This document shows, in pieces, positions 5,474-23,651 of a DNA stretch of 32,000 bases. The stretch is taken from contig NZ_CP042905.2 in the NCBI RefSeq assembly GCF_008000775.2, forward strand, positions 3,060,001-3,092,000, in the 5' to 3' direction. Below the pieces are notes generated by a model. That model made no database searches. It had not been told where the DNA came from and saw only the letters and a program-made list of their open reading frames with translations. A program made the translations under genes and the position numbers. Numbering within the stretch: position 1 is the stretch's first letter; each line of letters starts with the position of its first letter. This stretch comes from Promethearchaeum syntrophicum (lineage in GTDB: Archaea; Asgardarchaeota; Lokiarchaeia; Sigyniarchaeales; Promethearchaeaceae).

Positions 5474-6343
5474 TTAACTCGAAGAAATCCATTCGGTTAA
5501 TTCATTCATTCTCTCATTAGCTAATGAATAACCTTGATTAAACAATTTTTTTAATTTTTTTGAATCTTTTGTTGTTCTCCCTACTTGTTGAAGATCGTCT
5601 GGTCTAAATATGAATACTTTTCCATCTTCTTCCAATTTCTTAAGGAAATCAAGAGTGTCATTATATACTATATGCCGATTGTTCATTATTTCTTCAATAC
5701 CCTCATATCCCTTGAACAATTTCTTAAGTAAATTAAAATTCTTGAAAGATTCTTTCCTATAATTGTCATTTTGGGTTAGAAGAACAACATTTTTCTCATA
5801 TCCATCCTCAATTGCCTTTCGAATCGGAATTGGATCCGAAATGCCACCATCTAGATAATTTTTTCCATTAAATTCTTTTATTCTTCCCATGAACGGTAAG
5901 CTACAAGAAGCAATAGCGATATCCATTAAATTTTTTTTTTTTGTTAAATTTTTCTTATAGAAATACTCAGTTTTTCCCGTTTCGCAAATAGTTGCCCCAA
6001 TTACATGCTCAGTTGATGAGTTAAAATAGGTTTCATAATCAAAGGGAACTAAGTGATTTGGAATTTCATCAAAGAGAAATTTCATTCCGAAGACAGATCC
6101 ATCTCGTAAAAAATTTCTAAAACTCGAATACCTACGATCTTTGGCAAATTGTATATCAACAATTCGATTTCTTCCTATCTGACGAGAAATATAAGACAAA
6201 GAATTTGACGCACCAGCGGAAACCCCAATTACATAGGGAAAATGTACATTATTTTCAAGGAAAAAATCTAAAATCCCTGCTGTGTGGACAATACGTTGAC
6301 CCCCACCTTCACAAACTAATCCAATATTTTTAATTTCTGACAT
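5474..6343 (-). CDS. Patatin-like phospholipase
   Basis: All three patatin blocks are present in order: oxyanion CEGGGQR, nucleophile elbow GVSAG (GxSxG), catalytic Asp in YLDGGISDPIP (DGG). ATG start at 6343. Confidence 0.8.
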   Translation of the reverse strand: MSEIKNIGLVCEGGGQRIVHTAGILDFFLENNVHFPYVIGVSAGASNSLSYISRQIGRNRIVDIQFAKDRRYSSFRNFLRDGSVFGMKFLFDEIPNHLVPFDYETYFNSSTEHVIGATICETGKTEYFYKKNLTKKKNLMDIAIASCSLPFMGRIKEFNGKNYLDGGISDPIPIRKAIEDGYEKNVVLLTQNDNYRKESFKNFNLLKKLFKGYEGIEEIMNNRHIVYNDTLDFLKKLEEDGKVFIFRPDDLQQVGRTTKDSKKLKKLFNQGYSLANERMNELTEWISSS

Positions 6344-6410
6344 TCTATATTTAAATGATAGTTATTCATCCCATAAAAAAAAAAATATAATATCTATTTT
6401 ATGGCATATT

Positions 6411-6476
6411 TGTTCTATTTGAAATTGATTTTGAAATTATTAATGTATCTGGAAGAATCTCAGTTTCAATAGAACA
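6411..6476. promoter_or_regulatory. Imperfect inverted repeat in the divergent patatin / SIR2-TPR intergenic region
   Basis: TGTTCTATTTGAAA (6411-6424) versus TTTCAATAGAACA (6464-6476). The arms are complementary apart from one extra T. A TTTGAAATT direct duplication lies between them. Confidence 0.25.
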
Positions 6477-6583
6477 CAATATTTACTTCTAAAAATCGTC
6501 CTAAATAACTGTCATAATTTTAAACAATGACCAATATTGAATTAAACGGTATTATTTATTAGATAAAAAGTTGATAAAAAAGT

Positions 6584-8572
6584 ATGGAAAAGACAGCATT
6601 TATTAAATCTTCTTTAAACTTGAATAAATTGTTTGGAGAGCAGGAAAATTATACATTCTTAGTGGGAGCAGGTATTTCTATGGATTCTCCATCTAATGTT
6701 CCATCGGCGAGGCAAATAATAAAATATCTCCTGAATATTTGTGCTTCTAACAAAGATCAAGCAAAAATTCTTGATATTGAAAATTTAAGTTATGAAATCT
6801 TTGTTGAAATCTTCCAAAATAACATAGATCAAAATTTAATGTTTTTGGATTATTTCGATCTGATTACTAAACCTAATATTATTCATTTTTTGCTTTCTAT
6901 GATGTTAAAAGAGAGGCAGTACGTAATTACAACAAATTTTGACTATTTAATAGAACATGCATTAATGAAAATTGAAGAAAATTTAGATAATATTACTCTA
7001 GTAATCACCAAGAAAGATTATCATAAAAATAGTAATCCTGAGAAAAAAGATAAATTACTGCTTTACAAACTTCATGGTTCTAAGAGAAATATAATTACAA
7101 AAGAGAATACCGAAAATTCACTGATTACCACCATATCCTCTCTTGGGAGAGATAGAAAACAAGGAGAGACTTTCGCAATTGAACCATATAAGAAACCTGC
7201 GATAATAAATTTAATGAAAAACAGAACCCTTATCGTGTTAGGGTATTCCGGCTCAGATGCTTTTGACATAAGCCCTACATTATTTGAATTACCAGAATTA
7301 AAGAGAATCATTTGGATATCTCATTCTAATATTGAAAAACCATTAATTGATGTAGTTAACAAGGAGGTTGATTTAGATGATCAAGATTTTCATCAATTCT
7401 CGTTAACAGATCAGATGCTTATTGATTTGGCACAAAATAATCCTTATGAAATTTACCGTATATCAGGAAATACACGTGTCATTACTGAAATGATCTGGAC
7501 TATAATATTTCCAAATAAAAACGAAAAGATTCCTGAACTGATTTCAGAAGAAGACAATCAAATACCTGATTTTAACGATTTTATTTCTTCTATTTATAAT
7601 GATATAACTGAAATTGATACTTTGTTTTTCACAGAGGAAATTTTCTCCACTTTTGGTCTTTATAAACGTGCACTTGACTGTATTGAAAAAGGATTGGAGA
7701 TTGTGTCCCAAAAAAATGATCTCGATCTTAAAATCAGATTTATTAATAGATTAGCGATGATTCATATGACAAGGGAAGAATACGATGAAGCTTTGAATTG
7801 CAGGGAAGAAGCCTTAAAATATTACTCAAAAACGAATAAAATATGCAGTAAAGCAGATCAATTATCATCGATTGGCTCAATTTTTCTTTCCAAATTTGAT
7901 TACGATCAAGCATATAAATTTGTAAAACGAGCCTATTCTATCCATAAGAAACTAAAAAATACTTATGGTCTGGCAAGTGATTTGAATTTATTAGGCCTAA
8001 TTTTCTCAAAAAAGGGAAATAAAAAAAAATCGTTATCCTATTATAAGAAGGGTTTGAAATTCTCCGAGATCAATGGGGATTTATATTCAAAGGCAGCATT
8101 TTTAACTAATATTGGAATTATTTATTATGAATCTAAAGAATATAGTAGAGCTTTACCTTTTTATTACGATTCTTTAAAAATAGAAGATCTTCTTGGAAGA
8201 AATTGGCAATCTTTTATAATTTTAAATCGTATTGCTGAAATTCATTATGAGAAAAAAGAGTGGAAAAAAGCAATTCCCAATTTTCAGAGAGCTTTAGAAA
8301 TCGCAGAAAATATTGGTGAAAATGATATTGCGTTTATTCAATATGATCAAGGCATTGGTCATATGCTAAGTTACCTTGGAGAATGTTCTGATAAGATTGG
8401 AGACCTTGAAACATCGTTGAAGTACTATGAAAAATTGTTAAAAAGAGATGAATTATTTAACGATATAAAAGCAATTAAGATTGATTTGGAACTCTTAGGA
8501 AACCTGCATTTAAAGCTCAATAATAATATATTAGCTCAGGAATTTTTGGAGCGTGCTGATAATATAGATTAA
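6584..8572 (+). CDS. SIR2-like (SIR2_2/NADase-type) domain protein fused to C-terminal TPR repeats
   Basis: N-terminal blocks are FLVGAGIS, VITTNFDYL (Asn118), LYKLHGS (His164) and LIVLGYSGSD. The C-terminal ~320 aa form 7-8 TPR-like helical hairpins of ~40 aa. There is no Walker A motif anywhere in the protein. Confidence 0.75.
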   Translation: MEKTAFIKSSLNLNKLFGEQENYTFLVGAGISMDSPSNVPSARQIIKYLLNICASNKDQAKILDIENLSYEIFVEIFQNNIDQNLMFLDYFDLITKPNIIHFLLSMMLKERQYVITTNFDYLIEHALMKIEENLDNITLVITKKDYHKNSNPEKKDKLLLYKLHGSKRNIITKENTENSLITTISSLGRDRKQGETFAIEPYKKPAIINLMKNRTLIVLGYSGSDAFDISPTLFELPELKRIIWISHSNIEKPLIDVVNKEVDLDDQDFHQFSLTDQMLIDLAQNNPYEIYRISGNTRVITEMIWTIIFPNKNEKIPELISEEDNQIPDFNDFISSIYNDITEIDTLFFTEEIFSTFGLYKRALDCIEKGLEIVSQKNDLDLKIRFINRLAMIHMTREEYDEALNCREEALKYYSKTNKICSKADQLSSIGSIFLSKFDYDQAYKFVKRAYSIHKKLKNTYGLASDLNLLGLIFSKKGNKKKSLSYYKKGLKFSEINGDLYSKAAFLTNIGIIYYESKEYSRALPFYYDSLKIEDLLGRNWQSFIILNRIAEIHYEKKEWKKAIPNFQRALEIAENIGENDIAFIQYDQGIGHMLSYLGECSDKIGDLETSLKYYEKLLKRDELFNDIKAIKIDLELLGNLHLKLNNNILAQEFLERADNID

Positions 8573-8593
8573 ATTTAAAAATAAAAAGAATTT

Positions 8594-10552
8594 TTATTTT
8601 ATCCAATTACGTAAATCCCGTCCTTTCTTCTTTGATTTCGCGAGAAGACTTCGTACAACTTTCGTAATTGCATAAGGATTCAACCCTTGATGATTTAATT
8701 GTTCCCACAAACCCGTAATCCCGAGCTTGGTGACTCCTAGATGTTGATACAATGGACTATATCCGGCCTCCAACAACCATGTGCCAAACCGAATTCCCAA
8801 TCCGGTCTTGTAATTTTGACTTTCTACCAGTAAAACGAATGGAGCTTGCCCAATCTTTGCCATCATCGCCTTGTCGGTCTTATTTATTGTGGGCTTGTTA
8901 ATTAATCCTACGAATTTTCCTTCTTCACGTAAAGTTTCAACAACATCAAGGCATCGATAAAGCATTTCACCGTAAGTCACAATATAACCATCAGTTCCTT
9001 CCCGAACTACTTCATCTTTCTTTGGTTTGAATCTATAGCCCCTACTTATATCAAACATATGGTTTCCTTTCTCATCTAAAATGAAGGGGGTTGGAGAGCG
9101 TGTAGAGAAAACAAATTTTAATCCAGGATCATCCCAAACTTCTTTTACAATGGCCCCCATTTGATGCCAATCTGCAGGGAAATAAAGCCGAGTAATATCA
9201 CCTTCGGCAATGCCGTTATCTGCAAAGAAATGATTAATACCAAAATGACAATTGTTATCTGCCATCCAATCAACCCCGCTATGCGAAAAATGAGCCAAAA
9301 CATTTGCATCGTTATAACGAGCCATTGTAATTTCAGAAGGTAACATTTCTAAGAACGCAGAGAAAGTGGCCGTAATCCCTATTCTACTAGGGATATTCCC
9401 AAACCCAGCAGCTACTGAAAAATTGTTTCTTTCCATAATTCCCCCGTTTATATATACTTCAGGGAATTCTTCTTTAATGAAGTGGAGTCCTGTAGAACCT
9501 GCTAAATCATTATCGATGACTTTTACTTTATGGATTCGTTCTTCGTAGGACATTTTTCCTAAGATTTCACAAACCACTTTCCCAAATTTATCTCTCGCTT
9601 TGCGAAATTCTGAAGTACTCCCTTTATATTTAAATTCTGCCTTTTGTTTGATAGCATTCTCGATAAGATTTATTGCTTTATCATATTTTCTCACTTTTAA
9701 ATATTCAATTGCGGCTTCTTTTGGAATAACATCATGGCCTTTCGTTGTATCTTCAATACCTTTGATACCTTGAGCCATTTTCCTCCGAATTACAACTGCT
9801 GCAGTACCTTTTTCTAGAATTGCCCACCGCATTACCCGATAGAGATCCCGAATATCTTCAGGATTATTACATATTTTAGTATTAATTCCATGGCCTTGCA
9901 GGGTTTTTTCAATATCATATCCACGTAAATATTCTTTTGGATGCCCGGTAATGGTCATGTTATTATCATCAATAAATAGTTTTACTTCTAAATTATTAGT
10001 AGATGCAAATCTTGCCGCTTCAGCATTATTACCTTCTTGTTGGGATCCGTCACTTCCCATTATGAGTGTTTTTTGATGAGGATTCGCTAATGCAACCCCG
10101 TTTACAAAGGACCACATGTGACCTAATCTACCAGAGCTGAATTCAATTCCGGGTGTTTCCCCTTTCTCTGGATGACCCGGGAGCCAACAAAAAGCCTGTC
10201 TATATTGCATCAAATCTTCAAATGGCATAAATCCATTTATTGCTGCTAAAAGGTAGTGAGCGGCAACCCGATGCCCCGCTTCATCAAAAATCACAGGATG
10301 TATGTGATTGCGGCCTTTCCGTATGCTATCTGCAATGATCATCTCAGGTGTTATATCAAACGCGCCGCCGGTATGCCCTCCTAAGCGTTTCACCCCAGCG
10401 TAGGCAGTGAAAAATACGATTGCATCTCTTGCTAATTCGATATTTTTTTTCAGTTGTTTTACTTGAGCATCAGAAAGTTCTTCATCGTTTAGATTTAGAA
10501 TAACATGTCGATAAGCTTTCATGTCGATTGGGAATTTTACTTTAGCAGCCAT
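8594..10552 (-). CDS. Transketolase-family thiamine-diphosphate enzyme (N- and C-terminal halves fused in one polypeptide)
   Basis: Motifs seen: LGGHTGGAFD, GHPEKGETPGIEFSSGRLGH, and the TPP/metal block GSDGSQQEGNNAEAARFA. The pyrimidine-binding half follows (MERNNFSVAAG...FSHSG). Size is 652 aa. Confidence 0.7.
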   Translation of the reverse strand: MAAKVKFPIDMKAYRHVILNLNDEELSDAQVKQLKKNIELARDAIVFFTAYAGVKRLGGHTGGAFDITPEMIIADSIRKGRNHIHPVIFDEAGHRVAAHYLLAAINGFMPFEDLMQYRQAFCWLPGHPEKGETPGIEFSSGRLGHMWSFVNGVALANPHQKTLIMGSDGSQQEGNNAEAARFASTNNLEVKLFIDDNNMTITGHPKEYLRGYDIEKTLQGHGINTKICNNPEDIRDLYRVMRWAILEKGTAAVVIRRKMAQGIKGIEDTTKGHDVIPKEAAIEYLKVRKYDKAINLIENAIKQKAEFKYKGSTSEFRKARDKFGKVVCEILGKMSYEERIHKVKVIDNDLAGSTGLHFIKEEFPEVYINGGIMERNNFSVAAGFGNIPSRIGITATFSAFLEMLPSEITMARYNDANVLAHFSHSGVDWMADNNCHFGINHFFADNGIAEGDITRLYFPADWHQMGAIVKEVWDDPGLKFVFSTRSPTPFILDEKGNHMFDISRGYRFKPKKDEVVREGTDGYIVTYGEMLYRCLDVVETLREEGKFVGLINKPTINKTDKAMMAKIGQAPFVLLVESQNYKTGLGIRFGTWLLEAGYSPLYQHLGVTKLGITGLWEQLNHQGLNPYAITKVVRSLLAKSKKKGRDLRNWIK

Positions 10553-10670: not shown

Positions 10671-11258
10671 TCACTTTAGAAAGGGGGTATCTGGGGGTAA
10701 AAAGGGGTAAATCTGAAAAATATTAAAATCCACTTCTTTCATTCTAATAAAATACTCTCTTTCTAATTCTCGTTCTCTATAGATTTTTTGTTTAATTTCT
10801 TCTGGAGAAAACTTAAAAGTTTCATTTAGATTTTTCTGTAATCCTTCACAATATTTGATAGTTCGTCTGAAATTTTCTTCAGAAGTCATAATCATGGACC
10901 AAAACGGGAAAAGATCGCATTGAACAGGGCGGGATTGATAAATTTTACATAAGTTCTTGCCATCTTCAATAAAAAGAAAAATACAATCGGAGGATTGTTC
11001 AAAATTTAAGACTAAAGTATCCATAGTTTTCGTATTCTTTGTAGCTTCCAAATTTTCATCCCAGATTGTATATTCATATTTTGTAATCGAGAGATATTTT
11101 TTAGCAAATTCTTCTTTAGAAATCTGTAAATTTTTTGAAATTTTTTCTATATCCACCATATACATAAAAATATATCCTTCTGTTTCATTTGAGCAGCATT
11201 TTCCACATTGTTGACATTGAAATGTGAAACCCGAAGAAACAGAATCACAAAGATCCAT
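10671..11258 (-). CDS. YkgJ-family cysteine-cluster (CxxCxxCC) zinc/iron-chelating domain protein
   Basis: CQQCGKCCSN lies near the N-terminus, with later Cys residues (DCIF, LCKIY, VQCD). The track start at 11309 is a TTG codon; the first ATG (MDLCDSV) is at 11258. Confidence 0.6.
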   Translation of the reverse strand: MDLCDSVSSGFTFQCQQCGKCCSNETEGYIFMYMVDIEKISKNLQISKEEFAKKYLSITKYEYTIWDENLEATKNTKTMDTLVLNFEQSSDCIFLFIEDGKNLCKIYQSRPVQCDLFPFWSMIMTSEENFRRTIKYCEGLQKNLNETFKFSPEEIKQKIYRERELEREYFIRMKEVDFNIFQIYPFLPPDTPFLK

Positions 11259-11351
11259 ATTCAAAATTTGTAAGATACATTTAAAAAAATTTTTCTTTAT
11301 TATTTGCAATTAGATAATTTCACATTTATTTTAGAAAGAAAAATGTGAGGG

Positions 11352-12746
11352 TTAATTCTGAATTAATTTCCATCGTGTTCCCTTTGGAGTATCCTCTATT
11401 AATACACCCATTTCTTGAAGTTGATCCCGAATCATATCAGATTTTTGCCAATTTTTTTCTTCTCGAGCTTTTTCTCTTGCTTTAATTAAATTTTCAGCTT
11501 CTTCAGAAATGAATTCTTCTTCAATCAGATTTAAACCTAAAACCTGATCAAATTGGGAAACAAGTGCCAATTTTTCTTCTCCGTTTAAGTCAGATTTAAG
11601 CATAGTCCATACAAGGCCCAGAGCTTGTGGAAGGTTCATATCGGAATTTATATATTTTAAAAATTGCATTGAAAATTCTTCTTTAAGTTTGGGATTGGGT
11701 GTTCCAGATTTATCTTTTGCTAACTGTACCCGATTTTTCAAAGACATATAAGCTTGTTGAGCCATTTCGAGATTTTTCCACGAAAATGAAAGAGCAGATC
11801 GATAATGGGCAGTCAAACACATATAGCGATAGGCAAGGGGGTTAATTTTCTTGGATTCAATATCTTCCAAGATGATAAATGAACCTTGAGATTTACTCAT
11901 TTTTTCTTTATCCAAAACTAAAAATTCCCCATGTAGCCAATAATTCACCCACTTTTTCCCAGTCGCACTTTCCGATTGGGCAATTTCATTAGTATGATGA
12001 ACCGGAATATGATCTATTCCTCCACAATGGATATCAAATTGGTCGCCCAGATATTTAATTGACATTGCAGAACATTCAATATGCCACCCGGGAAAGCCTC
12101 GACCCCAAGGAGAATCCCATTGCATAATATGAGACGGTTGATTTGATACCCATAAAGCAAAATCGGAAGGATTTTTTCGTTCAGGATCTATTTTTACCCG
12201 TGCACCTGCTTTTTGATTATCAAGATTCAATTTCGCAAGTTTGGTATAATCCACAAATTTCCTTGAATTGAATATTAACCCAACGGATGTAGGATAGGTG
12301 TATTCCATTTTTTCTATGCGTTTTATAAACTCAATCATGTCAGGAACGTGTTCTGATGCTTTGCAGATGACAGTTGGTGTGATAATATTTAATTTAGCAC
12401 AATCTTCGAAAAAGCGAATTTCATACTTCTTCGCTAAAGCCAACATGGTTTCAACTGAGGGATCTAATCCAAGCTTTCTGATCGATCTCATCAATTTATC
12501 TTCCCCAACATCAGCGTCAGAAGTTAAATGCCCCACATCTGTGATATTCATTACATGCTTTACAGAATAACCGTTAAAGTGTAAAATACGGAGGAGAATA
12601 TCCTCAAAAATATAAGTTCTTAAGTTTCCGATATGTTGATAATCGTAAACCGTTGGACCGCAACAGTATATTCCCACATACTCTTTATGGATTGGATGAA
12701 ATACCTCTTTTCGGCGCCCCATGGTATTAAATAATTCTAAGGTCAT
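11352..12746 (-). CDS. cysS: Cysteine--tRNA ligase
   Basis: [17 protein letters not shown] (Zn-binding Cys plus HIGH-type motif), KMSKS present (EKMSKSQG), [14 protein letters not shown] block. Size is 464 aa. Confidence 0.95.
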
Positions 12747-12897
12747 GATTTTTACCTTTGTAATAATTACTAATTACGAATTCTTGAAAAAAAAAATTAC
12801 TATTTTTCATTTTCAGATTTCATTTTTATTAATATCAATTTGAATTTTGGAATTAACTAAACTAAAAATTAAATGAAATAAAAATAAATTATCTTTA

Positions 12898-13803
12898 ATG
12901 CAAGTATTTGAAGTCCTACGTTCAATTGAAACACGGTTAATTCCGGGAAATAATTCTCAGATTAAAAATATAATAAGCCCAGATAAAGTATATTTAATAA
13001 CAAATGATGAAAGCAAAAAAATATATATCTTAAGGGGGGGAAGATCTACATTAGTATATTATTTTATTGCACAAAAACTTGCAAAAGCGATAAGGAAAAG
13101 TAAACGCGGATTTTATGGTATCGAGGAAATTAAATCAGAGGAGCAAACGGTACAAATGATGGATATGGTTGCAGATGATACTGGAATCATTAAAGAATTT
13201 GTAAATCCTGATTTTTATTCAAAAGACGATCCCATAATGGACCCAAATAATACGAAGGTTAATTTCTTAGAGACTGATCCTACTTGGCGTGAAAGAATAC
13301 AACCAAGCAATTTACAAGTTTTTAAAAAAAAGCAAAATACGGAACATGTTTTTGATCAAATCAAACAGAATCCTTTGAATCCAAAATATAAAACAGATTT
13401 AGTATTAATTGATTCTTCAATTTATACACCAACTAAGAAATTAACGAATTTTTTAAAAGATCGGAAAGAGGAACGAGTTTATGAAAAAATTGGAGAATTA
13501 ACAGAGGGAAAGTTTTTTTCTCCTCAATATATGTGTCGTTTCATTGTTAAAGGAGAACACATTAATTCAATTGAGTTAATACGAAAGAAAGATCAAATGG
13601 AAATGAATACTGATAAGATTAATGCTCCTGTATTGTTTATAAGACGAATTATATCGGAAAGATCTATTGATATTTTGAGAAGTTCCTTCGATTTACCTAA
13701 AGTTGAATCATTTGATGATTTACTAGCACGAGTAAGAGAAGAAAAAGCAAGTAAAGAACCCCTATTGTCTTCTTTGGATGATATGAAGGACAAGAAGTCA
13801 TAA
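12898..13803 (+). CDS. Hypothetical protein; the N-terminal ~85 aa may be a gelsolin/cofilin-fold domain
   Basis: ATG start. The 301-aa ORF ends 12 nt before cca on the same strand. The segment ISPDKVYLITNDESKKIYILRGGRSTLVYYFIAQKLAKAIRKSKRGFYGIEEI follows the gelsolin-domain sequence pattern. This product call is tentative; the confidence given is for the gene being real. Confidence 0.6.
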   Translation: MQVFEVLRSIETRLIPGNNSQIKNIISPDKVYLITNDESKKIYILRGGRSTLVYYFIAQKLAKAIRKSKRGFYGIEEIKSEEQTVQMMDMVADDTGIIKEFVNPDFYSKDDPIMDPNNTKVNFLETDPTWRERIQPSNLQVFKKKQNTEHVFDQIKQNPLNPKYKTDLVLIDSSIYTPTKKLTNFLKDRKEERVYEKIGELTEGKFFSPQYMCRFIVKGEHINSIELIRKKDQMEMNTDKINAPVLFIRRIISERSIDILRSSFDLPKVESFDDLLARVREEKASKEPLLSSLDDMKDKKS

Positions 13804-15298: not shown

Positions 15299-17557
15299 TT
15301 ATTTCTTTACCTTGTCCATATATCCACAGGTACATTTAAGTTTCGCGCACATTGGACAAATTTTAACTTTTGTTTTAGTCCCGCTTGCTTGAGAGAGTCT
15401 TCTTCTAGTTCTCCTTTTCGGAATAGAGGTTTTTTGTGACACTGCAGAACCTTGTGAACTCGGTTGCTTTTCTGAATCTTTGACTATAGTAGGTTGAGAT
15501 TTATTGTTAGAACCCCTATTCGGAACACCAAACATATTATAACTCATAGCTGATTTATTAGGCGGATCTACAATTTTTTCAGCAACTTTGATAGGTTTGA
15601 TTTCAATTTTTTCTTCTTTTATTCCTTTTGATGTTAAAATTTCGTTGGAATTAGTGTCAGTTTTTGAAATCGGAGATTCTTCAGAAGAAATCACAGGTTT
15701 AATTGTAAATTTATTATCCTCAGAACTTTGTTGTTCAATCAGGTTTTTAATATCGTTTTCTAATTTCTTATGCCCAGTTTCTTCTTGTAATAAACTTGGA
15801 ATATCTTTAGATCCTTCAAATTCGTCATCTTGAAGCGAATTTTCAAAAGTCTTAATGGGTGTTGGAGCTTTAACTGGTTTTAATGTAAGATTTTGTATGT
15901 TAGATTTTTTGATTTTCTTCATTATATCTTCTATGGATCCTGATATAGGTTCTTCTTCAGAAGTCTCGGGTACTACTTCCTCAACAGGCGCGGGAACTTC
16001 TTCAAAAGGCGTAGGAACCTCTTCTTCAACAGGCGCGGGTACTCCTTCCTCAATAGGCGCGGGTACTCCTTCCTCAATAGGCGCAGGTGCTATTTCTTCG
16101 ACAGGCGCGGGAACTTCTTCTTCAATAGGCGCGGGAACTTCTTCTTCAATAGGCGCGGGAACTTCTTCTTCAATAGGCGCGGGAACTTCTTCTTCAACAG
16201 GCGCGGGAACTTCTTCTTCAACGGGCGTGGGTGCTATTTCTTCAACAGGCGCGGGAACTTCTTCTTCAACGGGCGTGGGTGCTATTTCTTCAACAGACGC
16301 AGGAAATTCTTCTTCAAAAGGCGTAGGAACCTCTTCTTCAACAGGCGCGGGTACTCCTTCATCAATGGGTTTGGATTCTTCATCTTCATCTGGTTCGAGC
16401 GGTACAATTTCAATTAAATTTGTTAATCGGAAGATTTCTTGTTTCGCTTTTTCAAAATCAGCAGCAGACCATACCCCGCTATCCACTAGAGGTTTTGAAG
16501 CTCTTTTGATACAATAAACAGATTCTTGGTATTTGCCTTGTTGTTCAAATAATTTCGCTTTTTGGAGGAGTTTTATTCCAACTTGAACAGGATCGTCCGC
16601 TTTTTCATGTGGTTCTTTCTTATCTTTTATAGTTACTTCTTTATCTGGTTTAATAGCAGAAATTTTTGTTTGAATCTTAGATTTTAGTTTTTCAGATTTT
16701 TCTTGCAATTTGTTATATTTCCAGCTTGAACTAAAGATAACTATCTCTTCGAGTAATTCAAGAGATTCTTGAACCATTTGGGGATTTTCATCTTTGCTCT
16801 TTAATAATGCTTGAAAATAGAGAAATTCAGAATGCAATTTTTCATTGTTTAAGCTATCTGCAAGTTCAATACCCCCCTCTATGAGCTGAAATAACTGTTC
16901 GCGAGGTAGATTGATACTGTTTTCCGTTTCTAGTTCTGTAATTTTACTGCTAAGGTTAATAAAAAAACTTTCCGCACCTTGTAAACAATCATAACAAATT
17001 AATTGATGATCAAATAATTCAGCATCATGTTCAGAAACACTATCTCCAACTAGCATTTTCAACCCTTTACAACTATCACATCGAGATCGCGGAAATTCTT
17101 GATTAACAAATAAAATTTGAATTAAAATTTTCAGTATTTTTGATTTAATGTCTGTATCTCCAATAATTGTGCATTTTCCCCAAGAAATAGGTTTATTGGT
17201 TGGAAATCCTTCGAGAGACTTTATCCCATGGGGCATAAATGTAAATACTACTTTCTCTTCTTCTAATGAAGCTGTCAAAATCCTATGACTGGGAAGGGTT
17301 ACTGAATAATTTTTCTGCTTATTTTCAAATTTAATATCTGGAAAAGGATTTTTTATTTCGAAAATAGCTGAGGCATTTTCTTCAAATTTTATTGATTCTG
17401 CTGGAAAAACACCAATATTAAATTTTCCTTCGATTTTCGTTTCATCAGGGGGGTTTTCAAAATTATGATATAAATTCCACGAAATAGAAATGTTTTCCAG
17501 CAAGAGGGGCTCTATAGTTTCCATGAATTCATTGATTTTCAATTCGTTGATCTCCAA
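15299..17557 (-). CDS. Large orphan protein: N-terminal domain, CxxC...CxxC zinc-ribbon-like motif, helical region, 17 acidic Pro-rich 8-aa repeats, disordered basic tail, terminal Cys cluster
   Basis: Long ORF of 752 aa. The track start at 17557 is TTG; the first ATG is at 17524. Motifs: CDSCKGLKM...CYDC, the repeat block EEEVPAP[VI] x17, and the tail KRRTRRR...KICPMCAKLKCTCGY. I recognise no family. Confidence 0.8.
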   Translation of the reverse strand: MEINELKINEFMETIEPLLLENISISWNLYHNFENPPDETKIEGKFNIGVFPAESIKFEENASAIFEIKNPFPDIKFENKQKNYSVTLPSHRILTASLEEEKVVFTFMPHGIKSLEGFPTNKPISWGKCTIIGDTDIKSKILKILIQILFVNQEFPRSRCDSCKGLKMLVGDSVSEHDAELFDHQLICYDCLQGAESFFINLSSKITELETENSINLPREQLFQLIEGGIELADSLNNEKLHSEFLYFQALLKSKDENPQMVQESLELLEEIVIFSSSWKYNKLQEKSEKLKSKIQTKISAIKPDKEVTIKDKKEPHEKADDPVQVGIKLLQKAKLFEQQGKYQESVYCIKRASKPLVDSGVWSAADFEKAKQEIFRLTNLIEIVPLEPDEDEESKPIDEGVPAPVEEEVPTPFEEEFPASVEEIAPTPVEEEVPAPVEEIAPTPVEEEVPAPVEEEVPAPIEEEVPAPIEEEVPAPIEEEVPAPVEEIAPAPIEEGVPAPIEEGVPAPVEEEVPTPFEEVPAPVEEVVPETSEEEPISGSIEDIMKKIKKSNIQNLTLKPVKAPTPIKTFENSLQDDEFEGSKDIPSLLQEETGHKKLENDIKNLIEQQSSEDNKFTIKPVISSEESPISKTDTNSNEILTSKGIKEEKIEIKPIKVAEKIVDPPNKSAMSYNMFGVPNRGSNNKSQPTIVKDSEKQPSSQGSAVSQKTSIPKRRTRRRLSQASGTKTKVKICPMCAKLKCTCGYMDKVKK
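15959..16363. repeat. In-frame tandem repeat, 24-nt unit, 17 copies (one of 21 nt)
   Basis: Three identical consecutive units of AATAGGCGCGGGAACTTCTTCTTC at 16124-16195. A perfect 48-nt duplication at 16196-16243 / 16244-16291. Flanking copies are degenerate. The block is visibly more GC-rich than its surroundings. Confidence 0.95.
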
Positions 17558-22502: not shown

Positions 22503-23651
22503 TTACAATAAAATTTCATAAATGAATTCATCCCAGCAGCTACCTTTAAAATTATTAGGAATAATATCAATATCCTGGGTCTCTACAAATTTATGTAAAA
22601 TATCCAAGCAAAAATCATTACTTTCATCATAAGGACTGCAATTATGAACCCCTCTTTCTTTTCCAGCTGCAGAGGGATCACAGATTACACGAGTTTGCTT
22701 CAATTCTTCATTAGATATGGAATGTTTTAAAAGCCAAAGCAGTGAAAATAGCCAAGGGGATCTAAATTGGCGGACTTTCTCCAATTCATTACTTAATGTA
22801 TTCATCTGAATATTTGCGGGGTTAATAGAAATGGTATCGACATTATTTTCAACACAAATTCGTACCGTTTGAAAAGTGTCGTATATCGCCCCATATTCAT
22901 TAATAAATGGCGGTTTAAATAAAATATAGGCTTTAATTCCGAAATTAAAAGAATGAAGTAAATCAATGGCAGCTAAAAACGAATTAAAATTAAACCCTTT
23001 ATTAATCAAGTTTATTCGAATAAAATCGCTACTTGTTTCCAGCCCCACACCGATTTCTAAATATTTATTCCCGATTAATGGTCTGTATTGTTCTAATATC
23101 TGCTTTGTAATATATTCTGGGCGCGATTCAATGACAATTTCTTTAATTGTGGAAAATTCACCCAGTGTTTTAAGGATTCTTAACTGAATTTCAATTGGGA
23201 TCTCTTTGGGATCGCAAAAACTCCCTGAGGTAAATATTTTAAAAACAATTTTTGAAGATGGATCTTTGAGTAATGATTCATTTTTTGAAAGAGAAACTTG
23301 GAATTGATTCCAATAATTTTCTCCCGTAATGGACTCTGGGGCTCTGTCATTCCAATAACCGCACATAGTACAGCCACCTGATTTGGATTTTGCCCAAGAA
23401 CACGCTGACGAACGAATAATTAGAGTAATTTCAGTCCCCATTCCATTTTTTAATCGTTCTGGTTTGGAAAAAACTGCCACTGGTCGATTTAATTGGGTTT
23501 GCTTGTCGTATTTACGTTTTTTTAAGGGACGATGGCGGAGATATACGAGTTCTTCCCATAATTCTTTTCCAAAATTATCTTGGGTAGCGAGCCACTCTTG
23601 AATTTCTTTTTGCATAAAATATTGATCATTATTGGTATCTTGTAGGGTCAT
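22503..23651 (-). CDS. Radical-SAM protein, probable archaeosine-biosynthesis partner of ArcS (RaSEA-like)
   Basis: Cys cluster ACSWAKSKSGGCTMCGYW (C-x9-C-x2-C) followed by a TIM-barrel-like region. It starts 5 nt after the arcS stop on the same strand. Size is 382 aa. Confidence 0.6.
   Translation of the reverse strand: MTLQDTNNDQYFMQKEIQEWLATQDNFGKELWEELVYLRHRPLKKRKYDKQTQLNRPVAVFSKPERLKNGMGTEITLIIRSSACSWAKSKSGGCTMCGYWNDRAPESITGENYWNQFQVSLSKNESLLKDPSSKIVFKIFTSGSFCDPKEIPIEIQLRILKTLGEFSTIKEIVIESRPEYITKQILEQYRPLIGNKYLEIGVGLETSSDFIRINLINKGFNFNSFLAAIDLLHSFNFGIKAYILFKPPFINEYGAIYDTFQTVRICVENNVDTISINPANIQMNTLSNELEKVRQFRSPWLFSLLWLLKHSISNEELKQTRVICDPSAAGKERGVHNCSPYDESNDFCLDILHKFVETQDIDIIPNNFKGSCWDEFIYEILL

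What the first reader, a model, noticed from the sequence alone, without database searches (positions are those of the whole stretch)
6584..8572. SIR2-like (NADase-type) domain fused directly to a TPR array: candidate single-protein immune/conflict sensor
The N-terminal ~240 aa carry the SIR2_2-type blocks in order: FLVGAGIS, VITTNFDYL (Asn118, bases 6935-6937), LYKLHGS (His164, bases 7073-7075) and LIVLGYSGSD. The equivalent Asn and His are catalytic in NAD+-consuming defence SIR2 domains (ThsA, DSR-type, SIR2-HerA, SIR2-Avs). No sirtuin zinc-ribbon is visible, so the domain looks like an active NADase-type module rather than a deacetylase. After a ~100-aa linker, aa ~345-660 form 7-8 TPR hairpins of ~40 aa (e.g. 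LNRLAMIHMTREEYDEALNCREEALKYY, LTNIGIIYYESKEYSRALPFYYDSLKI). There is no P-loop/STAND NTPase between effector and repeats. The architecture is therefore effector plus helical-repeat sensor only, parallel to DSR2 but much shorter, and in an archaeal genome. The gene has a 240-bp upstream spacer and ends 21 nt from a convergent housekeeping gene, consistent with a single-gene insertion.
Basis: partly seen in the sequence, partly recalled or inferred. Interest (0 to 1): 0.7.

Follow-up and report, generated by a model that had tools for sequence, protein, structure and literature searches.

The report
Asgard SIR2-like enzyme fused to TPRs
This intact gene of an Asgard archaeon joins an NAD-cleaving domain of the type used in antiviral defence to a protein-binding repeat array; it belongs to a large family I did not find described, and its biological role (immunity or cell regulation) is still open.

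Summary
ORF 6584-8572 (+, 662 aa) carries a SIR2_2 domain above Pfam's threshold. Asn118 and His164 sit at the catalytic positions, there is no zinc ribbon, eight TPR hairpins follow, and there is no NTPase. The "100-aa linker" is really a folded, conserved part of the SIR2 domain.

The window comes from Promethearchaeum syntrophicum. The protein is one lineage-specific paralogue of a large SIR2–TPR family. All named close members are Asgard archaea, there are 574 clusters at E≤1e-30, and many genomes hold two or three copies.

Sequence and fold place the SIR2 domain with immune-type SIR2s (SPARSA, SIR2-HerA, FAM118B, Avs5), ahead of sirtuins.

Two related contigs have transketolase directly followed by patatin. 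The gene therefore lies in a roughly 2.25-kb single-gene insertion.

Several results do not fit an immune sensor:
- The TPR array is as constrained as the catalytic core (dN/dS about 0.2).
- Genes flanking other paralogues are metabolic, not defence genes.
- The main ~803-aa clade is syntenic across Asgard lineages, next to nadB.
- A housekeeping gene (CysRS) has also moved nearby.

Best reading: a TPR-controlled NAD+-consuming enzyme whose biological role is unresolved. It is a new variant of a known kind.

The parts
6344..8593 (.). About 2.25-kb segment present in this genome but absent between transketolase and patatin in two related contigs (single-gene insertion).
   Evidence: In L084 (transketolase 88% identical) and L095 (92%), the transketolase stop is followed after 40 bp or 7 bp by the patatin start, with no SIR2-TPR gene between. 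The segment has 27.8% GC. The gene's GC3 of 0.240 lies inside the range of its neighbours, 0.17-0.34.
6344..6583 (+). 240-bp AT-rich (20% GC) upstream spacer shared with the divergent patatin gene. It presumably holds both promoters.
   Evidence: The promoter role is inferred. The sigma-70 scan is not meaningful for archaea.
6584..8572 (+). Coding sequence of the SIR2-TPR protein, 662 aa plus stop.
   Evidence: 100% identical to P0001, 'tetratricopeptide repeat protein [Promethearchaeum syntrophicum]'. Whole-gene dN/dS is 0.21-0.30 against three orthologues.
6584..7603 (+). SIR2 domain of the immune (SIR2_2 / 'SIRim') type, aa 1-340, including the former 'linker' (aa 241-340, bases 7304-7603).
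   Evidence: Pfam PF13289. A profile of this region matches SPARSA Sir2 8jkz/8in8 in the PDB at E=5e-4. Foldseek places the AF2 model with SPARSA 8y80 (6.5e-7), SIR2-HerA, FAM118B, KomBC and Avs5, ahead of SIRT2 at 1.3e-3.
6665..6679 (+). GAGIS (aa 28-32), the glycine-rich motif of SIR2 domains, presumed to bind NAD.
   Evidence: G28, A29, G30 and S32 are invariant in 82 homologues. The NAD-binding role rests on general knowledge of SIR2 domains, not on a test here.
6929..6943 (+). TTNFD (aa 116-120), containing the catalytic-position Asn118 (6935-6937).
   Evidence: N118 is present in 120 of 120 homologues. It aligns to TTNFD of SPARSA Sir2 and TTNYD of the SIR2-HerA Sir2. The equivalent DSR2 N133 is needed for NADase activity (PMC10981675).
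7073..7081 (+). HGS (aa 164-166), containing the catalytic-position His164 (7073-7075).
   Evidence: H164 is present in 118 of 120 homologues. It aligns to KIHG of SPARSA Sir2 and KLHGS of the SIR2-HerA Sir2. The equivalent DSR2 residue is H171.
7241..7267 (+). GYSGSDAFD (aa 220-228), a family-invariant SIR2_2 motif.
   Evidence: G220, Y221, S222, G223, D225, F227 and D228 are invariant. It aligns to GYSGRDE of SPARSA Sir2.
7610..8566 (+). Eight TPR hairpins (aa 343-661) of the 40-residue TPR_12 / LGN / kinesin-light-chain type. This is the presumed ligand-binding module.
   Evidence: Pfam TPR_12 at 1.5e-28. The model has 16 helices with pLDDT mostly above 90. The best fold matches are the LGN/Pins TPR domains (E=2e-10, TM 0.75 on the target). 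The profile also matches LGN, KLC and consensus TPR proteins.
5474..6343 (-). Flanking gene (not part of the feature): patatin-like phospholipase with DUF6363, the left border of the insertion.
8594..10552 (-). Flanking gene (not part of the feature): transketolase-like protein, the right border of the insertion.

Best explanation
The gene is functional and selectively maintained. It is a lineage-specific accessory paralogue of a large SIR2-TPR family seen so far in Asgard archaea.

The N-terminal 340 residues form an immune-type (SIR2_2 / 'SIRim') SIR2 domain with all NAD-binding and catalytic motifs intact. The C-terminal eight TPRs form a peptide- or protein-binding superhelix.

Most likely mechanism (inferred): the SIR2 domain cleaves NAD+ as an NAD+ glycohydrolase. 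Its activity or target is set by what the TPR groove binds. Ligand binding would release autoinhibition or drive oligomerisation, as in other SIR2 effectors that carry sensor modules.

What is shown: the architecture, the conserved active site, the fold relationship, family size and distribution, purifying selection, and the insertion polymorphism.

What is inferred: NADase chemistry, TPR gating, and any role in conflict. I judge a role in virus or stress-triggered NAD+ depletion plausible for this mobile paralogue, but no more likely than an endogenous regulatory role.
For: - SIR2_2 scores above threshold, and the motifs GAGxS, TTNFD, HGS and GYSGSDxFD are invariant or nearly so in 82-120 homologues.
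- N118 and H164 align to the Asn and His of SPARSA Sir2 and the SIR2-HerA Sir2. The equivalent DSR2 N133 and H171 are required for NADase activity.
- The AF2 N-terminal model matches solved immune SIR2 NADases and NAD processors (SPARSA, SIR2-HerA, FAM118B, KomBC, Avs5) better than sirtuins.
- There is one Cys and no zinc ribbon.
- The TPR array is a confident eight-repeat superhelix like LGN/KLC, which are peptide-binding TPRs.
- Across the family SIR2 is always joined to TPRs only. Repeat number is highly variable (about 600 to 2025 aa) and permuted forms exist (TPR-SIR2, TPR-SIR2-TPR).
- Genomes carry two or three or more copies.
- dN/dS is about 0.2 in both modules.
- The gene is absent from the same site in two relatives, and sits in four different contexts in four genomes.
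Against: - No biochemical data exist for any family member.
- PADLOC recognises no known system, and gives only partial domain hits.
- No partner gene is conserved with this clade.
- The TPR array shows no accelerated evolution.
- Neighbours of 58 paralogous loci are metabolic, not defence genes.
- The window itself is a housekeeping region with no mobile-element genes and no tRNA gene.
- The main clade is syntenic and looks vertically inherited, which fits a cellular role.
- SIR2 folds can also deacylate or ADP-ribosylate proteins.
Confidence: 0.45

Rival explanations
1. It is an endogenous regulatory enzyme. The TPR array recruits a cellular protein, and the SIR2 domain deacylates or ADP-ribosylates it using NAD+. 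In this reading the protein is a substrate-targeted protein modifier, not a bulk NADase and not an immune protein.
For: - The TPR array is as conserved as the catalytic core (81% against 82% identity, dN/dS about 0.2), as expected for a conserved endogenous partner.
- The main clade is syntenic across Loki-, Hermod-, Hod- and Odin-labelled genomes.
- Flanking genes of paralogues are housekeeping or metabolic.
- LGN/KLC-type TPRs are scaffolds for endogenous partners.
- There is a weak hit to an NAD-dependent deacylase model (NF001752, E=4.7e-6).
Against: - The domain falls in the SIR2_2 / immune-type group by sequence and fold, and the solved members it matches best are NADases or NAD processors.
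- There is no zinc ribbon or sirtuin-type substrate module.
- The NF001752 score is 26 bits against a cut-off of 221.
- Asgard archaea already have canonical sirtuin deacetylases, LoSIR2a-c, in a preprint that never mentions TPR.
Confidence: 0.27
2. It is a dedicated single-chain antiviral (abortive-infection) sensor. The TPR array binds a viral protein, the SIR2 domain then depletes NAD+, and the infected cell stops growing. This would be a DSR2-like logic without homology to the DSR2 sensor. It is the first reader's reading taken strictly.
For: - The SIR2 domain is immune-type with an intact active site.
- The architecture is effector plus repeats, with no other domain.
- There is a presence/absence polymorphism at this site, and no synteny among orthologues.
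- The family is expanded, with variable repeat number and several copies per genome.
- dN/dS is higher than for neighbouring genes: 0.21 against 0.05 for transketolase and 0.12-0.14 for patatin.
Against: - No link to defence islands was seen, either in this window or at 58 paralogous loci.
- No diversifying signal is visible in the TPR array at domain level.
- Composition matches the neighbouring genes.
- No similar gene is found in phage records, and only one weak plasmid hit.
- CysRS also differs in position between these genomes, so relocation is not specific to accessory defence genes.
Confidence: 0.2
3. It is a redundant or decaying duplicate of the nadB-linked core gene. The family's real function would be NAD+ homeostasis or NAD-linked signalling by the ~803-aa syntenic clade. 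This shorter copy, with 8 instead of about 11 TPRs, would have little function of its own.
For: - The core clade lies 85-132 bp upstream of L-aspartate oxidase (nadB), on the same strand, in 20 of 21 nadB-linked loci.
- The window clade is shorter and sits on a long branch.
Against: - The ORF is intact in five genomes at 71-78% identity with almost no indels.
- All catalytic motifs are kept, and dN/dS of about 0.2 shows ongoing purifying selection in both modules.
Confidence: 0.08

Closest known systems
SIR2-APAZ of short pAgo systems (SPARSA; PDB 8jkz, 8jl0, 8in8, 8y80)
   Same: This is the closest SIR2 domain by profile-sequence search (E=5e-4) and by fold (Foldseek E=6.5e-7, TM 0.56 on the query). 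TTNFD, K-I-H-G and GYSG align directly. The best PADLOC SIR2 hit is the pAgo-associated Aga_SIR2 model.
   Different: There is no APAZ domain and no Argonaute gene nearby. The C-terminus is a TPR array. Sequence identity is only 16-19%.
DSR2 (defence-associated sirtuin 2)
   Same: A single polypeptide with an N-terminal SIR2 NADase domain and a C-terminal all-helical sensor, and no NTPase. The catalytic Asn and His (N133, H171) correspond to N118 and H164.
   Different: No DSR2 model in PADLOC hits the protein. The C-terminus is made of canonical 40-aa TPRs, with no detectable similarity to the DSR2 MID/CTD. The protein has 662 aa against about 1000. It is archaeal. Tetramer formation and activation by a tail-tube protein are untested.
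SIR2-STAND / NLR-like proteins (Avs5, PDB 9nc9; fungal and animal SIR2-NACHT-TPR 'clade A sirims')
   Same: An immune-type SIR2 effector at the N-terminus and TPR-type repeats at the C-terminus. The Avs5 SIR2 is a fold match at 4.9e-4. The tripartite SIRim-NACHT-repeat architecture in eukaryotes is described in 10.1101/2024.09.18.613514.
   Different: The central P-loop NTPase that defines STAND/NLR proteins is absent.
Human FAM118B/FAM118A ('SIRanc'; PDB 9r3e, 9r0p)
   Same: SIR2_2-type fold match at E=2.3e-5, TM 0.56 on the target. It belongs to the same non-sirtuin SIR2 branch.
   Different: FAM118 proteins have no TPR array and act as filaments. Identity is 14-16%.
LGN/Pins and kinesin light chain TPR domains
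   Same: These are the best fold and profile matches for aa 343-661: an eight-repeat superhelix of 40-aa TPR_12-type repeats that bind extended peptides.
   Different: Identity is 15-22%. Those proteins are eukaryotic scaffolds with no enzymatic domain. This repeat type is common, so the resemblance does not show shared ancestry.

Membership tests
SIR2_2 / immune-type SIR2 ('SIRim') domain superfamily | Match to Pfam PF13289 above the gathering score | tested here: met
   40.4 bits against 24.5, E=3.9e-10.
SIR2_2 / immune-type SIR2 ('SIRim') domain superfamily | GAGxS glycine-rich motif, and catalytic Asn and His at the aligned positions | tested here: met
   GAGIS at aa 28-32. N118 and H164 align to TTNFD and KIHG of SPARSA Sir2 and to TTNYD and KLHGS of the SIR2-HerA Sir2. 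They are conserved in 100% and 98% of 120 homologues.
SIR2_2 / immune-type SIR2 ('SIRim') domain superfamily | Fold closer to immune SIR2s than to sirtuins, with no zinc ribbon | tested here: met
   The top 13 Foldseek hits are SPARSA, SIR2-HerA, FAM118B, KomBC and Avs5. SIRT2 first appears at 1.3e-3. There is one Cys in 345 aa.
SIR2_2 / immune-type SIR2 ('SIRim') domain superfamily | NAD+ hydrolase activity | not testable with these tools
   Needs an enzyme assay.
DSR2 | Homology of the region after the SIR2 domain to the DSR2 MID/CTD sensor | tested here: not met
   The PADLOC scan at E≤1 returns no DSR model. The C-terminus is a canonical TPR array.
DSR2 | Tetramer activated by a phage tail-tube protein | not testable with these tools
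   This mechanism is described in PMC10981675. No data exist for this protein.
Thoeris ThsA | SIR2 fused to a SLOG (or Macro) domain, with an adjacent TIR gene (thsB) | tested here: not met
   No SLOG, Macro or TIR hit in the protein or its neighbours. ThsA 8wc0 is only a marginal profile hit, E=0.27.
SPARSA (SIR2-APAZ plus short pAgo) | APAZ domain and a neighbouring short Argonaute gene | tested here: not met
   Only the SIR2 part aligns. The neighbours are patatin and transketolase.
STAND / NLR-like SIR2 proteins (Avs5, SIR2-NACHT-TPR) | Central P-loop NTPase (NACHT, NB-ARC or AAA) between effector and repeats | tested here: not met
   No NTPase family is hit in Pfam, NCBIfam or PADLOC. Residues 241-340 are the only stretch between the core and the TPRs, and they carry no NTPase hit.
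Canonical sirtuin deacylases (PF02146) | Match to the sirtuin model, and a Cys4 zinc-binding module | tested here: not met
   PF02146 is not among the Pfam hits at E≤1. NF001752 scores 26 bits against a cut-off of 221. There is a single Cys.
TPR superfamily (TPR_12 / LGN-KLC type) | Tandem helix-turn-helix repeats matching TPR models and forming a superhelix | tested here: met
   TPR_12 at 1.5e-28 in five stretches. The model has 16 helices. LGN TPR matches at TM 0.75 on the target.
Asgard SIR2-TPR family (defined here) | About 345-aa SIR2 module with invariant E71, N98, H101, TTNFD, E124, K162, HG, GYSG-D-FD and W244, joined only to TPR repeats | tested here: met
   The query carries all the invariant residues. 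It forms a five-member clade (662-664 aa) on a separate branch of the family tree.

The most novel reading that the evidence does not exclude
The Asgard SIR2-TPR proteins could be an NTPase-free family of single-chain innate-immune or stress receptors, with a TPR sensor directly gating a SIR2 NADase. They could also be related by descent to the eukaryotic immune-type SIR2 proteins that branch with pAgo-associated SIR2s, some of which carry TPR-like (PF14938) domains. That would add a further immune module shared between Asgard archaea and eukaryotes. A variant of this reading: the nadB-linked core clade couples NAD+ consumption or sensing to de novo NAD+ synthesis, and the accessory paralogues were recruited from it for conflict.
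Probability: 0.15. Interest if true: 0.8.

Novelty: new variant of a known kind. Interest (0 to 1): 0.5.

Why it matters
Immune-type SIR2 domains are NAD+-depleting effectors in many bacterial defence systems. They have recently been tied to human FAM118 proteins.

Asgard archaea are the closest prokaryotic relatives of eukaryotes. They turn out to hold a very large family that joins this enzyme to TPR arrays alone: hundreds of 50%-identity clusters and several copies per genome. I did not find this family described in the literature I could search.

Two outcomes are possible:
- If the proteins are ligand-gated NADases, they are a minimal sensor-effector design without a nucleotide switch. They would also be a candidate link to eukaryotic SIR2-TPR and SIR2-NLR proteins.
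- If they are regulators tied to NAD+ metabolism, as the nadB-linked core clade hints, they show that 'defence-type' SIR2 domains also have housekeeping uses. That would caution against calling immunity from domain content alone.

Tried and rejected
- Single-sequence PDB search with aa 1-349 found nothing relevant.
- The full-length profile against the PDB, and the full-length model against the PDB, were swamped by TPR matches. I therefore built an N-terminal-only alignment and model.
- The context of the second paralogue in the same genome (P0023) was not on record. The source genome also did not appear in the genome-contig scan, so the copy number in MK-D1 is only known to be at least 2.
- A search for target-site duplications or terminal repeats at the insertion borders gave only an AT-rich 26-nt direct repeat at 81% identity (6377-6402 and 8577-8602). 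I regard it as chance.
- No tRNA gene lies in the window.
- The sigma-70 promoter and terminator scan gave counts at the shuffle expectation. It does not apply to archaea in any case.
- The phage collection gave no hit to the SIR2 domain. The plasmid collection gave one weak Agrobacterium SIR2 hit at 27% identity.
- A conserved partner gene for the window clade was looked for in four genomes and not found.
- A foreign-composition signal was considered and rejected: GC3 is within the local range.
- A pseudoenzyme reading was considered and rejected because the catalytic residues are invariant.
- Literature: the terms 'SIR2-TPR' and 'TPR-SIR2' do not occur in the library. The Asgard defence survey (PMC11291487) mentions neither SIR2 nor TPR. 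The Asgard SIR2 chromatin preprint concerns SIR2-family histone deacetylases and never mentions TPR.
Full report
**1. What is in the sequence**

ORF 6584-8572 on the + strand is open, starts with ATG and encodes 662 aa. Pfam finds SIR2_2 (PF13289) at E=3.9e-10, 40.4 bits against a gathering score of 24.5, over aa 114-226. It also finds several TPR families: TPR_12 at 1.5e-28, TPR_1 at 8.5e-24 and TPR_2 at 2.8e-22. NCBIfam and PADLOC add only TPR-containing models and partial SIR2 hits. The best PADLOC SIR2 hit is the pAgo-associated Aga_SIR2 model at 6.5e-9, and no DSR or ThsA model appears. No P-loop or STAND family is hit in any library.

Asn118 is at 6935-6937 and His164 at 7073-7075. The first 345 aa hold a single cysteine, so there is no zinc ribbon. 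The 240-bp upstream spacer and the 21-nt gap to the convergent gene are as stated.

**2. Structure**

An AlphaFold2 model built on 82 homologues is confident, with mean pLDDT 90.2 and pTM 0.85. It shows an α/β domain over aa 1-340, followed by 16 helices between aa 343 and 661. That is eight TPR hairpins with a 40-residue period.

Their block pLDDT is mostly 77-92 (67-76 over aa 311-330), and they contain the family-invariant W244 and T297. This stretch is part of the catalytic domain, not a linker.

The N-terminal model alone (pLDDT 83, pTM 0.85) was compared with the PDB. The best matches are:
- SPARSA Sir2 (8y80, E=6.5e-7; 8jl0, 8jkz)
- SIR2-HerA (8sub)
- human FAM118B (9r3e, 9r0p)
- KomBC (9xvc)
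- Avs5 (9nc9)

Sirtuins such as SIRT2 follow only from E=1.3e-3.

A sequence profile of the N-terminal module gives the same order: SPARSA Sir2 at 5e-4, the SIR2-HerA Sir2 at 0.054, Sir2Tm at 0.21 and ThsA at 0.27. In those alignments TTNFD matches TTNFD or TTNYD, and K-L-H-G matches K-I-H-G or K-L-H-G-S. The corresponding DSR2 residues, N133 and H171, are needed for NADase activity (PMC10981675).

The TPR half is most like the LGN/Pins and kinesin-light-chain TPR domains, with Foldseek E=2e-10 and TM 0.75 on the target.

**3. Where it comes from and how big the family is**

The protein is 100% identical to a 'tetratricopeptide repeat protein' of Promethearchaeum syntrophicum on a 4.32-Mb contig. 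Four orthologues of 664 aa share 71-78% identity. All other hits are 30-43% identical, carry the same two modules and, where named, come from Asgard archaea (Promethearchaeota/Loki, Hermod, Hod, Odin).

A scan of one genome per species found 280 relatives. The best 80 are all Asgard or unnamed archaeal MAGs. In that subset alone, 21 genomes have two or three copies.

A search of 1.84 billion cluster representatives with the SIR2-module profile gave 574 clusters at E≤1e-30 and 2172 at E≤1e-10.

Members range from about 600 to 2025 aa, and one representative reaches 3154 aa. The differences lie in the number of TPRs. Permuted forms exist (TPR-SIR2 in L063, TPR-SIR2-TPR in L057), but no other domain type was seen.

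N118 is present in 120 of 120 homologues and H164 in 118 of 120. GAGxS, TTNFD, HG and GYSG-D-FD are invariant.

**4. Family structure**

Clustering of the SIR2 modules gives one large clade of 85 sequences with a median length of 803 aa, plus many smaller clades.

In 21 of the 25 loci of the large clade, the gene is followed on the same strand by L-aspartate oxidase NadB (NF006567, 696 bits against a cut-off of 629). The spacer is 85-132 bp in 20 of these 21 loci. Next come ADH synthase and an S8 peptidase. A divergent low-molecular-weight phosphatase/ArsC-like gene lies upstream. The genomes carrying this arrangement are labelled Promethearchaeota, Hermod-, Hod- and Odinarchaeota. This clade therefore behaves like a vertically inherited, syntenic gene.

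The window protein is not in that clade. With its four orthologues it forms a separate long branch. The second paralogue from the same genome, P0023 (804 aa), is also outside the nadB-linked clade.

**5. Is it an insertion?**

The four genomes carrying the 662-664-aa gene have four unrelated neighbourhoods (window; L001, L002, L083).

Using the neighbouring transketolase as an anchor, two metagenome contigs from relatives were found: L084 (transketolase 88% identical) and L095 (92%). In both, the transketolase stop is followed after 40 bp or 7 bp by the patatin start, with nothing between. In the window the same two genes are separated by 2250 bp (6344-8593). That segment holds only the SIR2-TPR gene, in the opposite orientation, plus its upstream spacer. 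This is a clean single-gene presence/absence difference.

Several caveats apply:
- No repeat, tRNA gene or mobile-element gene marks the borders.
- Composition is native, with GC3 0.240 against 0.17-0.34 for neighbours.
- On contig L096 the CysRS gene is missing from between its window neighbours. Relocation of single genes in this lineage therefore also affects housekeeping genes.
- The rest of the window is housekeeping: EF-2, CysRS, CCA-adding enzyme, a TGT-like protein, ClpB and ArsA/Get3.

**6. Selection**

Within the five-member clade, identity is 82% in the SIR2 core, 69% in aa 241-340 and 81% in the TPR array.

| Region or gene | dN/dS |
|---|---|
| SIR2 core | 0.15-0.28 |
| aa 241-340 | 0.28-0.75 |
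| TPR array | 0.19-0.25 |
| Transketolase (flank) | about 0.05 |
| Patatin (flank) | 0.12-0.14 |

dS among the SIR2-TPR orthologues is 0.33-0.9.

Both modules are under purifying selection. It is somewhat weaker than on the neighbours, and there is no domain-level sign of an arms race in the presumed sensor. In the core clade the TPRs are also well conserved, with 56% mean identity against 69% for the SIR2 core.

**7. Context of the paralogues**

I scanned 149 genes flanking 58 loci outside the core clade. They are mostly methyltransferases, dehydrogenases, transporters and iron-sulphur or radical-SAM proteins. PADLOC hits at E≤1e-10 are few and look generic, with counts that match the Pfam methyltransferase and radical-SAM hits. 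There is no defence-island signal. Phage records contain no similar SIR2 module, and plasmids give one weak hit.

**8. Interpretation**

Shown:
- an intact, conserved two-module protein with an immune-type SIR2 active site and an LGN-like TPR superhelix;
- membership of a very large SIR2-TPR family whose named members are all Asgard archaea;
- accessory, relocating behaviour of this particular clade.

Inferred: the SIR2 module consumes NAD+, and the TPR array controls or targets it.

The others are an endogenous protein-modifying regulator and an NAD-homeostasis role. The evidence for immunity is architecture, expansion and mobility. The evidence against is conserved TPRs, housekeeping neighbourhoods, the syntenic core clade and the absence of known-system hits. 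I put the generic mechanism, a TPR-controlled NAD+-consuming enzyme, at about 0.45. The strict antiviral reading is at about 0.2.

**9. Comparison with what is known**

The protein works most like DSR2 (SIR2 plus a helical sensor, no NTPase). It fails the DSR2 membership test, because the sensor is not homologous.

Its SIR2 module is closest to the pAgo-associated SIR2s, but APAZ and Ago are missing. It lacks the NTPase of Avs5 and NLR-type SIR2 proteins, and the SLOG domain and TIR partner of Thoeris.

The literature I could search does not describe this family:
- The terms SIR2-TPR and TPR-SIR2 do not occur.
- The Asgard defence survey mentions neither SIR2 nor TPR.
- A 2026 preprint on Asgard SIR2 proteins deals with SIR2-family histone deacetylases and never mentions TPR.
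- The SIRim preprint included 496 Asgard genomes. It notes eukaryotic SIRim proteins fused to a TPR-like PF14938 domain, and eukaryotic clades that branch with pAgo-associated SIR2s, but the passages I read say nothing of an Asgard SIR2-TPR family.

PF14938 also hits this protein (E=1.6e-5) and L063 (4e-19). That is a lead, not a test.

**10. Verdict**

This is a real feature, correctly observed. It is a new variant of a known kind: an immune-type SIR2 effector fused directly to a TPR array, in Asgard archaea. The immune interpretation is only partly supported. Interest is moderate (0.5). The family is large, conserved and uncharacterised in a lineage of evolutionary importance, but nothing here yet shows what it does.

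Noticed in passing
L004, L006, L008, L009, L011, L012, L014, L016-L021, L023-L027, L029, L039 (for example L018:4983-9073): The main ~803-aa clade of the SIR2-TPR family is followed on the same strand, after 85-132 bp, by L-aspartate oxidase (nadB), the first enzyme of de novo NAD+ synthesis. ADH synthase and an S8 peptidase come next. A divergent low-molecular-weight phosphatase/ArsC-like gene lies upstream. This order is kept in genomes labelled Loki, Hermod, Hod and Odin. An NAD-consuming domain next to an NAD-synthesis gene may be functionally meaningful.
   Followed up: partly
L096:1-1733 compared with window 10671-13803: In a close relative, the CxxCxxCC-domain gene lies 62 bp from the homologue of ORF 12898-13803. 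In the window, the cysteinyl-tRNA synthetase gene (11352-12746) sits between them. A housekeeping gene therefore also differs in position between these genomes.
   Followed up: partly
window 5474-6343 (-) and 8594-10552 (-); L084, L095: The transketolase-like gene and a patatin-like phospholipase (with DUF6363) are directly adjacent and on the same strand in two relatives (7-40 bp apart). They may be co-transcribed there. In this genome the inserted gene separates them.
   Followed up: partly
window 8594-10552 (-): The single-chain, 652-aa transketolase-like protein matches the three transketolase Pfam domains only weakly (E=1e-8 to 1e-14). Homologues at 49-57% identity occur in many metagenome contigs. 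It may be a divergent member of the transketolase / DXP-synthase-like group.
   Followed up: no
L063:2568-6497, L057:3654-6908, L074:1084-7161, L030:4845-10511; P0121: The family includes permuted architectures (TPR-SIR2 and TPR-SIR2-TPR). It also includes giant members of 1600-2025 aa made of one SIR2 module and very long TPR arrays. One 3154-aa representative has three matched stretches to the SIR2 profile.
   Followed up: partly
window 6377-6402 and 8577-8602: An AT-rich 26-nt direct repeat (81% identical) lies just inside both borders of the inserted segment. It is probably chance in sequence with 20-28% GC.
   Followed up: partly
window 15299-17557 (-) and 22503-23651 (-): Two sizeable ORFs (752 aa and 382 aa) have no Pfam match at E≤1e-5.
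   Followed up: no
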